Part shown: positions 3,001 to 6,000 of the stretch, piece by piece | How positions within the stretch are numbered: position 1 is the first letter of the stretch | Layout: the number at the start of each line of letters is the position of its first letter | Assembly (NCBI RefSeq): GCF_055900595.2 | Contig: NZ_CM148325.1 | DNA: 64,000 nt | Direction: 5' to 3' (one strand) | Program-made: the position numbers

Positions 3001-6000
3001 TCCCCGCCTGACGGCATTGCGGGTTGACCTGCGTTTCCCGGATGTACCGGCAGCAACGGACGCAGCTGTGATATCCCGCTTCATCAATGCCCTGAAAGCC
3101 CGAATCGACGCTTACCAGAAACGTAAGCATCGGGAAGGTAAACGCGTGCATCCCACAACCCTGCATTACGTCTGGGCCCGGGAGTTTGGGGAGTGCAAAG
3201 GTAAAAAACACTATCACCTGATGCTGCTGGTTAACCGGGATACCTGGTGTCGTGCCGGTGATTACCGTGCTCCGGGATCACTGGCCGGGATGATTAAACA
3301 GGCGTGGTGCAGTGCCCTGGGAGTGGATGTCGGGTGCCATGCCACACTGGTGCATTTTCCGGCCTGGCCGGCGGTGTGGCTGGAACGCGATGATGACACT
3401 GGCTTTCAGCAGGTGCTGGAACGTGCTGACTATCTGGCGAAGGAACATACCAAAGCTCACTGCACCGGTGAGCGCAATTTTGGCTGTAGCCGGAGTTGAG
3501 CACGACTGGCGCGCCAATACCCGGCAAACCAAAAGTATGGGTTGTTGTCTGGCGGCAACGATGTATCCACTCGCCCACTGACTGTTTTTTACGTCAGTGT
3601 TCCATTGTGTGACAACCACAGTGCTGTAACAGCAACCAGCCTGCTTTACCCAAACTCCAGTCCAGATTTTAACTGAACCGCCATTCACACCCTGACCACG
3701 CTGCCCGTACCGGGACGGCTGTTGCCTGCGTGTCGTCTGGCGGCTGAGGAATATGACTATGTACGCAAAATCCTTTATCGCTCTTGATGGCAACGGACGT
3801 CTGACGGGCGCCCGTACTGCACAGGCCGCACCTTATGCTAACTACACCTGCCACTTGTGTGGCAGTGCACTCAGATACCATCCGCAATACGACACTGAAC
3901 TTCCCTGGTTTGAACACACTGACGACAGGCTGACAGAGCACGGTCAACAGTGCCCTTATGTCAGGCCGGAGCGCAGAGAAATACAGTTGATTAAACGTCT
4001 GCAGCAATTCGTACCGGATGCCTTACCCGTGGTGCGTAAAGCCAGCTGGCACTGCAGACAATGTCACCACGATTATTATGGGGAGCGGTACTGCACACAC
4101 TGCCAGACCGGAGGATTCAGTATTCCCCGGACAACTCAGGAGGAAATATGCGAATTCTGAACTGTTATATGGCGAATGACAGCAAAGGCCATTTTGTTAC
4201 GGCGAAAGAAGCAGCGAAGCACAACCGCCAGGACGTTTTGTGCTGTGTGTCCTGTGGATGCCCGTTAACACTTCAGCGGGGCAATGACGGACAACCACCG
4301 TGGTTTGAACATGACCAGATGACTGTCGCTGAGAAAATCCTGCTGCGATGCACCTGGCTTGACCCGGCAGAGAAAGAGGCCCGTCGTTTGCATCTGCAGG
4401 GTATGACGGTTCCGGATTATACGGTGAAGGTGAGAAAGTGGTTTTGTGTGATGTGTGACGAAAATTATGAGGGGGAAAAGTGCTGCCCGAGTTGTGGTAC
4501 CGGGGTATACAGCAGGGAGGGGGGGCAGGAGGGCAACTGGAAGGATAGGAACTGAGCGGTTCAGTCGCGGAAATCAGTTGCAGAGCTGTAATGATATCTC
4601 CGGGAGTGCTGCGTTGGTAGGGGCATCCCGGGATAGAGAAATTTTAGCACTTTGCCCTGAATGATTGTAGACGTCCCGAGTACTCGTACCGGTCTGAGTT
4701 ATTACAGTTAGATATTCACTTTTTCTCCCGCATACTTCACATCTGTCAACGACGGATGAAAAGTGGTTCTTCCGCAACCTGGGTGGAAGAAAATGGATGA
4801 AACTTTCTGGCGAACAAGGATCTAAGCTGTTTTAAGTTATGGGCAACGCAATGCACTCTCTTAAGACACTTCTACAGTTACCTTGCGGATGGCGATGCAG
4901 TCGACAAATTATTAGCTCTGACGGTATAACCCTCCATCTCCACGGAAAACGCAAAACAGCACAATGTCCTGAATGCTTTAAGCGTAGCGACTCTGTTCAT
5001 AGTTGTCGTCGGCGCCGGATACAGCATCTACCCTGCTCAGGGCAGACGCTATGGCTTGTATTTTCCGTCCGCCACTGGTACTGCCGTAACCCGGCTTGTT
5101 CACGTAAAATTTTTGCCGAGTCGCTTGCTCCCTTCGCCAGTTCACACCAGCAGTCTTCACAGGCGTTACAAAATTAACAACGTCAACTGGGATTAATAGC
5201 TGGAGGTGAGGCTGGAAAACGGGCTGCAACGGCAGTGGGTCTCCGTTGCAGTGCTGATACTCTTCTTCGCAGGCTTATCAATACCCCGGAGACGAAACAG
5301 TCAGGCGCGCCTCATGTCGGTATTGATGAGTGGGCGTGGCATCGGGGCCACTGCTGCGGTATGTTAATAGTCAATCCTGATACTCACCGTCCCCTCGTCC
5401 TGCTTCCCGGCCGTGATCAGCGTACGCTGGCGACCTGGTTCAGAAAATATCCGGAAATACAGGTTGTCTCGCGTGATCGCAGTGGAGTCTATGCGACAGC
5501 AGCACGTGAAGGTGCACCTCAGGCCAGACAGGTGGCCGATCGATGGCACCTGCTAAAAAATATTGGTGATGAGCCTGAACGAATGATGTACAGATATATG
5601 CCTCTGATACGTCTTGTTGTCAGAGAGTTATCACTGAAGAAATCACCTGAGCCAGAAATATCTGTGCCTGTAGCATCGCTCCGTCGTCTGGAACGCCTTA
5701 AACAGCACATCCGCAAAAAACGGCATCAGCGTTGGACAGAGGTTATGGCCCTGCATAACAAGGGATGTAGTTTCAGGGAAATATCCCGTATTACAGGCCT
5801 GTCGCGAGTGACAGTCAGTCGCTGGGTGGGTTCAGGAACATTCCCTGAAATGTCAACTAGGCCTCCAAAGCGAGGGCTTCTGGACCCATGGAGGGAGTGG
5901 TTAAAAGAGCAACGAGAATGTGGTAATTATAACTCCGGCCGGATATGGCGGGAAATGGTGGCCAGGGGGGTTACAGGCAGTGAAACCATCGTCAGGGATG

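What the first reader, a model, noticed from the sequence alone, without database searches (positions are those of the whole stretch)
3753..4555. Translationally coupled tandem pair of paralogous 135-aa Cys-rich proteins of unknown family
Two adjacent ORFs of identical length (135 aa) share a co-linear motif architecture: CxxC, then the signature PWFEH, then W/F-x-C-x2-C, then Y-x-G-E-x-x-C-x-x-C-x-T-G. The second ATG (4148) follows an AGGAGG RBS and lies inside the last codons of the first ORF (ATG...TGA overlap). This is a recent tandem duplication of a multi-zinc-ribbon protein, sitting beside a YagK/YfjJ-family gene in a prophage-like remnant. I could not assign either to a characterised family. 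Candidates include a nucleic-acid-binding regulator pair or part of an accessory (for example anti-phage) module, but this is speculation.
Basis: seen in the sequence. Interest (0 to 1): 0.6.

Follow-up and report, generated by a model that had tools for sequence, protein, structure and literature searches.

The report
Island-backbone pair of zinc-ribbon proteins
Two overlapping small genes encode related zinc-binding proteins of a catalogued but unstudied family (Pfam DUF7828 + Zn_ribbon_11) that belongs to the conserved backbone of genomic islands in E. coli and other enterobacteria, so the pair is real and old but very common, and its function is unknown.

Summary
ORF A (3753/3759-4160) and ORF B (4148-4555) are paralogues: 31% identity, E=3e-15, all Cys/His motifs co-linear. 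They overlap by 13 nt, and B has its own AGGAGG. Both match Pfam DUF7828 (E~1e-31) plus Zn_ribbon_11 (formerly DUF3279), and RefSeq calls them "putative zinc ribbon protein". No function is known and no paper was found.

The duplication is ancient, not recent. The same A-then-B pair, often with the identical 13-nt overlap, occurs in Salmonella, Mixta, Hafnia, Siccibacter, Yokenella, Klebsiella plasmids and others. A-type genes form one clade, and dN/dS is 0.1-0.25 for both genes. The pair is in 3818 of 5426 complete E. coli genomes and in no phage record.

It sits in a conserved operon: gp2/YfjJ-like HUH protein, AlpA, ZnR-A, ZnR-B, degenerate gp2-like protein, DUF2913. Variable cargo follows. 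The pair is therefore island backbone, not a defence cargo gene.

The N-terminal domain resembles the CoiA N-terminal zinc finger (hhalign 86%), but there is no nuclease domain. An ~89-nt conserved non-coding leader precedes A.

Best guess: nucleic-acid-binding accessory or regulatory factors of the island's own life cycle. This is a catalogued, uncharacterised family of moderate-to-low interest.

The parts
3666..3753 (+). Conserved ~89-nt non-coding leader directly 5' of gene A. Core: GGGACGGCT-N4-GCCTGCGTGTCGTCTGGCGG, then the SD.
   Evidence: nhmmer finds exactly one copy per locus, always just upstream of the A-type gene, in 32 loci. Median pairwise identity is 76%, against 67% for the CDS and 39% for DNA further upstream. 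There is no RNA-structure support and no Rfam hit.
3759..4160 (+). Gene A (znrA-type), 133 aa (135 aa if started at 3753). It has a DUF7828 domain with C2HC ligands (C33, C36, H55, C67 in 135-aa numbering), a helix, and a C4 Zn_ribbon_11 (C101, C104, C114, C117).
4138..4143 (+). AGGAGG Shine-Dalgarno of gene B, lying inside the 3' end of gene A.
   Evidence: GGAGG/GAGG precedes B's ATG at the same place in the other genera.
4148..4555 (+). Gene B (znrB-type), 135 aa, with the same two-domain architecture. It overlaps A by 13 nt and has a variable C-terminal tail.
2930..3499 (+). Context: upstream YagK/YfjJ ('inovirus Gp2 family') gene with an HUH-like HYH motif and YLAK. It is the conserved upstream neighbour of the pair.
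   Evidence: Pfam YagK_YfjJ_C E=1e-47 and REP_ORF2-G2P E=6e-5. It lies upstream on the same strand in 35 of 40 loci. HxH is kept in 35 of 37 upstream copies.
1197..1403 (-). Context: AlpA-like HTH/excisionase-family regulator. It is inverted here; in most other genera it lies between the gp2-like gene and gene A on the same strand.

Best explanation
What it is (shown). Genes A and B are an ancient paralogous pair of small proteins. Each has two zinc sites: an N-terminal DUF7828 domain whose C2HC motif (CxxC...PWFEH...C) resembles the N-terminal zinc finger of CoiA, then a helix, then a C-terminal C4 zinc ribbon (Zn_ribbon_11). They form part of a conserved backbone operon of CP4-type genomic islands in Enterobacterales. 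The usual order is gp2/YfjJ-like HUH protein, AlpA, ZnR-A, ZnR-B, a degenerate gp2-like paralogue, DUF2913. Variable cargo follows.

How it probably works (inferred). The two proteins are made together through the overlapping, SD-preceded junction. They act as nucleic-acid-binding accessory or regulatory factors of the island's own life cycle, meaning control of excision, replication or island gene expression alongside AlpA and the HUH-type protein. They do not appear to be a cargo function. The strongly conserved 89-nt leader in front of A is a candidate binding site for autoregulation or for control by AlpA. A is the conserved core partner. B evolves faster, is lost more often, and is probably a modulator.
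For: Family membership: DUF7828 E~1e-31 and Zn_ribbon_11 E=1e-9 to 7e-18 for both proteins, and all 75 aligned homologues hit both families.

Zinc ligands are invariant or nearly so: C33, C36, H55, C67 and C101, C104, C114, C117.

Purifying selection acts on both genes, with dN/dS mostly 0.1-0.25.

The pair is old. The A-then-B pair with the identical 13-nt overlap is found in E. coli, Salmonella, Mixta, Hafnia, Siccibacter, Superficieibacter, Tenebrionibacter, Yokenella and Klebsiella plasmids. A-type genes form a single clade in an NJ tree.

Backbone position: a gp2/YfjJ-like gene lies upstream in 35 of 40 loci and AlpA is present in 26 of 40. The downstream genes vary: type I RM, two-partner secretion, Dpd, T6SS, RND efflux, IS elements.

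A conserved leader is tied to A.

The pair is absent from 50,697 phage records. The family is small and restricted to Enterobacterales, with no domain fusions.
Against: No experiment or paper bears on the function.

Nucleic-acid binding is inferred only from fold class and a moderate profile match. The pI of both proteins is near neutral.

Zinc ribbons can equally mediate protein-protein contacts.

A linker-fused A-B AlphaFold model gave no confident complex: pLDDT 64, pTM 0.36, from a shallow 18-row paired alignment.

YfjJ/YagK genes exist without this pair. The CP4-44 region of K-12 that was examined lacks it, and that K-12 yfjJ and yagK also have no such neighbours is from my own knowledge, not tested. 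A-only islands exist in Pectobacterium and some Budvicia loci. Neither partnership is therefore obligatory.

The leader shows no RNA structure or covariation, and its binding partner is unknown.
Confidence: 0.45

Rival explanations
1. Protein-binding adaptors or transcription activators in the manner of P2 Ogr / P4 Delta. In this reading the small zinc-finger proteins contact host RNA polymerase or another host machine to switch on island or helper genes, and do not bind nucleic acid themselves.
For: The islands are of the CP4 ('cryptic P4-like') type. P4 Delta is itself a tandem duplication of an Ogr-like zinc finger (own knowledge). The pair is co-transcribed with AlpA in most genera. pI is near neutral.
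Against: Pfam reports no Ogr_Delta match even at E<=10. There are no viral structural analogues in BFVD and no homologue in phage records. The N-terminal domain matches the CoiA N-terminal finger, which belongs to a DNA-processing enzyme.
Confidence: 0.2
2. An anti-phage defence or anti-defence accessory module.
For: The islands carry defence cargo directly downstream: Dpd, type I RM. A CoiA-domain protein was recovered in an E. coli defence screen (PMC9519451).
Against: There is no significant PADLOC hit (best E=0.035). The genes lie in the invariant backbone while the cargo next to them changes. No enzymatic or effector domain is present in 135 aa. Up to 7 places match the pair's DNA in one genome, which fits backbone better than a selected immune gene.
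Confidence: 0.1
3. A toxin-antitoxin-like addiction pair, suggested by two small, overlapping, co-translated genes on a mobile element.
For: Gene size, the overlap and the location on a mobile element.
Against: The two products are paralogues with the same fold, unlike known TA pairs. B is often degraded while A stays intact, and single-gene islands exist. There is no match to toxin or antitoxin families in Pfam, NCBIfam or PADLOC. The islands already carry CbtA/CbeA-type TA modules elsewhere (a CbtA-family gene is annotated in one hit; the rest is own knowledge).
Confidence: 0.04
4. Decaying, non-functional remnants of a dead island.
For: This particular island copy is riddled with IS elements and pseudogenes. 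AlpA is inverted and the Hha-like gene is broken.
Against: Both reading frames are intact here. dN/dS is mostly 0.1-0.25 across genera. The zinc ligands are invariant. The pair is kept in thousands of genomes.
Confidence: 0.03

Closest known systems
Pfam DUF7828 (PF25165) + Zn_ribbon_11 (PF11682, formerly DUF3279); RefSeq 'putative zinc ribbon protein' / UniProt 'Ybl85'
   Same: Both proteins are full-length members. A is essentially identical to WP_000270974 and B to WP_001221623.
   Different: Nothing differs. The family itself has no assigned function and no literature was found.
N-terminal zinc finger of competence nuclease CoiA (Pfam CoiA_N, PF25164)
   Same: Same order of elements: a short beta-hairpin ('xIAxDxxG'), then CxxC, ~15-18 residues, an aromatic-F-x-H motif, and a further Cys. 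hhalign probability is 86% over 67 columns against 9 real CoiA N-termini. The direct Pfam hit is weak (E=0.35).
   Different: There is no PD-(D/E)XK nuclease domain. The proteins end in a C4 zinc ribbon instead. The motif is WFEH rather than HFAH. The family is confined to Enterobacterales islands and is not linked to competence.
P2 Ogr / P4 Delta zinc-finger late-gene activators (Pfam Ogr_Delta)
   Same: Small Cys-rich zinc proteins of P4-related elements. P4 Delta is a duplicated Ogr unit (own knowledge), which is analogous to a paralogous pair.
   Different: No sequence or profile similarity was detected. The Cys spacing differs and there is a two-domain architecture. No phage homologues were found.
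HUH-endonuclease systems that use a zinc-binding DNA-recognition module (e.g. the IS91-family transposase N-terminal zinc finger)
   Same: A zinc-binding module is encoded next to an HUH-type (gp2/YfjJ-like) protein that keeps the HxH and YxxK motifs.
   Different: Here the zinc proteins are separate polypeptides. No activity of YfjJ-family proteins has been shown. The association is frequent but not obligatory. The comparison rests on my own knowledge and was not tested.

Membership tests
DUF7828 / Zn_ribbon_11 family (ex-DUF3279) | Significant match to the PF25165 profile over its full length | tested here: met
   A: E=2.8e-31, model 1-87 of 87. B: E=7.7e-31, model 2-86 of 87.
DUF7828 / Zn_ribbon_11 family (ex-DUF3279) | Significant match to PF11682 at the C-terminus | tested here: met
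   A: E=1.3e-9. B: E=7e-18. 75 of 75 aligned homologues hit both families.
DUF7828 / Zn_ribbon_11 family (ex-DUF3279) | Conserved putative metal ligands (C2HC + C4) | tested here: met
   Invariant or at least 90% conserved in 75 sequences and in the paired alignment. Metal content itself was not measured.
CoiA competence nuclease family | CoiA_N-type N-terminal zinc finger | tested here: inconclusive
   hhalign probability 86%, E=4.7e-6, with motifs in register. The direct Pfam hit is only E=0.35, and for B alone.
CoiA competence nuclease family | PD-(D/E)XK nuclease domain (PF06054) | tested here: not met
   There is no such Pfam hit, and the proteins are 133-135 aa and fully accounted for by the two zinc domains.
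Ogr/Delta zinc-finger activators | Match to the Ogr_Delta profile | tested here: not met
   Not listed among Pfam hits even at E<=10.
Known or candidate anti-phage defence systems (PADLOC-DB) | Match to any PADLOC model | tested here: not met
   A has none. B's best hit is E=0.035 to PDC-S64 over 30 residues of zinc ribbon.
Phage protein families (PHROGs; INPHARED genomes) | Homologue in phage genomes | tested here: not met
   PHROGs: none for A and E=0.03 for B. tblastn against 50,697 phage records found no match.
Toxin-antitoxin pair | Growth inhibition by one partner, neutralised by the other | not testable with these tools
   Only indirect arguments are available: paralogy, and frequent loss of B alone.

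The most novel reading that the evidence does not exclude
ZnR-A and ZnR-B form a new class of regulator for mobile elements, built on a stand-alone CoiA_N-type zinc finger plus a zinc ribbon. In this reading they recognise the conserved 89-nt leader and/or a structured DNA intermediate. With AlpA and the active/degenerate pair of gp2-like HUH proteins they would then govern excision, replication or mobilisation of the CP4-type islands found in about 70% of E. coli genomes. That would be a so-far undescribed life-cycle module for a very common but poorly understood class of islands.
Probability: 0.15. Interest if true: 0.55.

Novelty: already known. Interest (0 to 1): 0.3.

Why it matters
The pair itself is catalogued (Pfam, RefSeq) and extremely common, so finding it in one window is not a discovery. 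It does belong to a conserved operon of unknown function: gp2/YfjJ-like protein, AlpA, ZnR-A, ZnR-B, gp2-like', DUF2913. That operon forms the backbone of islands carrying virulence, defence and resistance cargo in E. coli, Salmonella, Klebsiella plasmids and many other Enterobacterales. I found no paper on these proteins. Learning what they do would help explain how these islands are regulated, maintained or moved. The analysis yields concrete handles for that work: an ancient A/B division of labour, a CoiA-finger-like domain, and a conserved leader element.

Tried and rejected
- NCBIfam, PADLOC and PHROGs gave no meaningful hits for A or B.
- A PDB sequence search found only insignificant zinc-ribbon matches, E>=0.15.
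- Foldseek against AFDB50 returned only family members among the 50 matches listed.
- Foldseek against BFVD found nothing significant.
- Rfam on window 1-6000 found nothing.
- Literature searches for DUF3279, DUF7828, Zn_ribbon_11, the WP accessions, Ybl85, YfjJ/YagK and DUF2913 returned nothing relevant.
The same probe by tblastn against plasmids did retrieve real annotated CoiA genes, and these were used for the profile comparison.
- K-12 was checked as a source of functional data, but its CP4-44 (yoeG/yoeH region) has no trace of A, B or the YfjJ-like gene.
- Heterodimer test: an A-(GGGGS)6-B fusion with an 18-row paired alignment gave pLDDT 64 and pTM 0.36, which is uninformative.
- Leader as a structured RNA: RNAalifold gave -2.9 kcal/mol with almost no covariation, and the single-sequence z-score was -0.6, so this was rejected.
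- A repeated 14-mer, TGTyGTCTGGCGGC, occurs at 3543 and 3731. The extra copies are E. coli-specific and not conserved elsewhere, so they are treated as possibly chance.
- My early label 'YfjI?' for the ~200-aa protein at 501-1118(-) was wrong. The RefSeq YfjI family is a 494-aa protein, and the 200-aa protein has no Pfam match.
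Full report
**1. Observation**

The ORF list and the raw sequence show ORF A at 3753-4160 and ORF B, from ATG 4148, at 4148-4555. Each is 135 aa with those starts.
- A's stop (TGA, 4158-4160) lies 13 nt inside B.
- AGGAGG sits at 4138-4143, 4 nt before B's ATG.
- BLASTP of A against B gives 31% identity over 118 residues, E=3e-15, with every Cys/His motif in register.
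- The only direct DNA repeat between the genes is the 19-nt stretch encoding PWFEH.

One correction concerns A's start. RefSeq starts A at the second ATG (3759, 133 aa). That start fits the GAGG at 3746-3749 better, and it matches the MYAKSF N-terminus of orthologues. B is 135-144 aa in other E. coli copies. The 'identical length' is therefore incidental.

**2. Identity**

The window is E. coli chromosome, 100% identical to strain M160133. It lies in the island next to cobUST and the tRNA-Asn genes, which is the site called cryptic prophage CP4-44 in K-12.

Both proteins match Pfam DUF7828 (E~1e-31, full model length) followed by Zn_ribbon_11, the former DUF3279. RefSeq names them 'putative zinc ribbon protein' and 'zinc-ribbon domain-containing protein'. 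UniProt entries are called Ybl85, or are mislabelled as an RNA polymerase subunit.

Nothing useful came from the following:
- NCBIfam, PADLOC and PHROGs.
- PDB sequences.
- Full-text literature searches for the family names, accessions or neighbours.

**3. Distribution**

- DNA of the pair is found in 3818 of 5426 complete E. coli genomes, at 8356 places. The median is 2 and the maximum 7 per genome, almost all chromosomal.
- A profile search of 1.84 billion representative proteins returns only 280 hits at E<=1e-3. All are small proteins or fragments, with no fusions to other domains.
- Structure-based search of AFDB50 listed only family members, those with a named organism being Enterobacterales.
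- A scan of 100,044 species genomes gives 37 loci. All are Enterobacterales apart from obvious contaminant bins.
- No phage record holds a homologue.
- Thirty-three plasmid records do, mostly large conjugative Klebsiella plasmids that carry the whole module.

**4. The duplication is old**

With a local HMM of the family I re-annotated all fetched loci.
- In most of them an A-type gene is followed directly by a second family member.
- The identical 13-nt overlap, preceded by GGAGG or GAGG, occurs in E. coli, Salmonella, Mixta, Hafnia, Siccibacter, Superficieibacter, Tenebrionibacter, Yokenella, an uncultured enterobacterium and Klebsiella plasmids.
- Trabulsiella, Serratia, Buttiauxella, Budvicia and Yersinia have the two genes separated by 27-133 nt.
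- A-type genes are 47-67% identical to A across genera and form one clade in an NJ tree (no bootstrap was run).
- The second genes are 30-53% identical to B and split into several deeper clades.
- A against B within any locus is only 24-37% identical.
- Nei-Gojobori dN/dS is mostly 0.1-0.25 for both genes between genera.

B is the partner that decays. It is fragmented or frameshifted in several loci where A is intact, and single-gene islands exist in Pectobacterium and some Budvicia loci. 'Recent tandem duplication' is therefore refuted. What exists is a long-maintained A/B pair.

**5. Context**

I clustered all ORFs within 6 kb of the anchor gene and compared the result with RefSeq annotation of a Klebsiella plasmid copy. 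This gives a canonical same-strand order:
- inovirus-Gp2/YfjJ-like protein
- AlpA
- in some genera, a 43-aa mini zinc-ribbon ORF
- ZnR-A
- ZnR-B
- a second Gp2-like protein
- DUF2913

On the other side, on the opposite strand, lie a ~320-aa protein, a YeeP-like GTPase, a DUF932 protein and a WYL regulator.

The gp2-like gene is upstream in 35 of 40 loci, and AlpA is present in 26 of 40.

What follows the module varies: type I restriction-modification, a two-partner secretion transporter, the Dpd 7-deazaguanine system, T6SS genes, RND efflux, metabolic genes or IS elements. The pair is therefore island backbone at the edge of the cargo region, not cargo.

In E. coli copies, AlpA and a ~200-aa protein are inverted. 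An Hha-like gene and a 67-aa gene lie between them and the gp2-like gene.

In this window the Hha-like gene is broken. An ISL3 pseudogene follows B, so anything that once lay downstream has been lost.

The window's gp2-like protein matches YagK_YfjJ_C (E=1e-47) and weakly the HUH Rep domain REP_ORF2-G2P. It carries HYH and YLAK motifs. Upstream copies keep HxH in 35 of 37 cases, while downstream copies have mostly lost it, with 3 of 11 retaining it. The module thus pairs an apparently active HUH-like protein with a degenerate one, in parallel with the conserved A and the fast-evolving B.

**6. Structure and remote similarity**

AlphaFold2 with a 75-sequence alignment gives pLDDT 79.8 and pTM 0.51. 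The model has an N-terminal beta-rich domain, a helix (72-86) and a C-terminal three-stranded ribbon.

The invariant or near-invariant residues define two metal sites:
- C33, C36, H55 (inside PWFEH) and C67.
- C101, C104, C114 and C117.

B gave weak Pfam hits to CoiA_N and DUF7830, so I retrieved nine real annotated CoiA genes and aligned their N-termini. Profile-profile comparison with the family gives probability 86%, E=4.7e-6, over 67 columns. The hairpin, CxxC, the (W/H)F(E/A)H motif and the next Cys all align.

[quoted passage not shown] A and B have the finger but no nuclease domain. This is a moderate, not decisive, link to a DNA-processing protein.

**7. A conserved leader**

Aligning the DNA upstream of A across genera revealed an ~89-nt element ending at the SD, at window 3666-3753.
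- nhmmer finds it once per locus, always directly before the A-type gene, in 32 loci. It occurs only once in the whole 64-kb window.
- Its core is more conserved than the coding sequence, at median 76% against 67%. It is far more conserved than DNA further upstream, at 39%.
- It has no supported RNA fold and no Rfam match.

I read it as a protein-binding cis element, either an operator or a leader, for the znrAB genes. What binds it is unknown.

**8. Mechanism**

These points are shown:
- The two genes are paralogous.
- Both are under purifying selection.
- Their putative zinc ligands are conserved.
- The junction between them has the form of a translationally coupled overlap.
- They sit in the island backbone with AlpA and HUH-like genes.

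These points are inferred: they bind nucleic acid, and they serve the island's own excision, replication or expression programme. A would be the core factor and B a modulator. I give this 0.45.

Rivals:
- RNAP- or protein-binding activators like Ogr/Delta: 0.2. No profile similarity, no phage homologues.
- Defence or anti-defence: 0.1. No PADLOC hit, backbone position.
- Toxin-antitoxin: 0.04. The products are paralogues, and B is lost alone.
- Dead remnants: 0.03. Contradicted by dN/dS.

A linker-fused A-B model was not confident (pTM 0.36), so heterodimerisation is untested rather than refuted.

**9. Novelty and verdict**

The proteins are identical to widespread RefSeq entries and belong to catalogued Pfam families, so the finding is 'already known' as an object, although the family is uncharacterised.

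Its evolutionary reading ('recent') is wrong, and its functional speculation (defence) is unsupported.

The useful by-products are:
- the ancient A/B pair with a conserved overlap;
- the canonical backbone operon;
- the CoiA-finger resemblance;
- the conserved leader;
- an unannotated mini zinc-ribbon ORF in related islands.

Interest is 0.3. This is an unstudied module in about 70% of E. coli genomes, with no evidence here of an unusual mechanism.

Noticed in passing
window 3666-3753: An ~89-nt non-coding element directly upstream of gene A is conserved across more than 15 genera, more strongly than the coding sequence. It occurs once per locus. It has no RNA-structure support and no Rfam match.
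   Followed up: partly
L061:7732-7863 (Klebsiella plasmid); also L013:7731, L015:7733, L016:7722, L017:7731, L041:7732, L018:1180, L038:7719: An unannotated, conserved 43-aa ORF lies between alpA and the A-type gene. Its sequence is MEKRRRTQP..RW(T/K)CPRCRRQYCGARPCPVCFR.., a mini zinc ribbon whose motif resembles Zn_ribbon_11. It is absent from the E. coli window.
   Followed up: partly
L006:8810-9391, L013:8839-9474, L061:8903-9469 and similar: The second gp2/YfjJ-like gene downstream of B has mostly lost the HxH (HUH) motif that 35 of 37 upstream copies keep. The module therefore pairs an apparently active HUH-like paralogue with a degenerate one.
   Followed up: partly
window 2146-2271: Remnant of an Hha/YmoA-family gene with an in-frame stop. 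The gene is intact at the same position in other E. coli copies.
   Followed up: yes
window 2530-2733 (-): A 67-aa ORF with an N-terminal CxxC...CxxC zinc ribbon and a hydrophobic C-terminal segment. RefSeq annotates it as hypothetical WP_001297900, and it is conserved at this position in other E. coli island copies.
   Followed up: no
window 501-1118 (-): A ~200-aa protein next to the AlpA-like gene has no Pfam, NCBIfam, PADLOC or PHROG match. It recurs near the module in 10 of the loci, and a separate cluster in 9 loci is the one RefSeq annotates as DUF2913 on a Klebsiella plasmid.
   Followed up: partly
window 4839-6458 and 6559-8900: An ISL3-family transposase pseudogene with an internal stop lies immediately downstream of B. 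After it come a ggt fragment, a truncated phosphotriesterase-related gene and a frameshifted IS3. The island copy in this window is heavily decayed.
   Followed up: no
window 3543-3556, 3731-3744 and 3882 (-): The 14-mer TGTyGTCTGGCGGC from the leader recurs 188 nt upstream, and a looser copy lies inside gene A on the other strand. The extra copies are E. coli-specific and may be chance.
   Followed up: yes
L002:8651-16390 (Citrobacter): In Citrobacter the A-type gene is followed directly by QueD (PTPS) and a DpdD / PLD / large DEAD-helicase cluster, which is a Dpd 7-deazaguanine DNA-modification system. This illustrates defence cargo docked next to the module.
   Followed up: no
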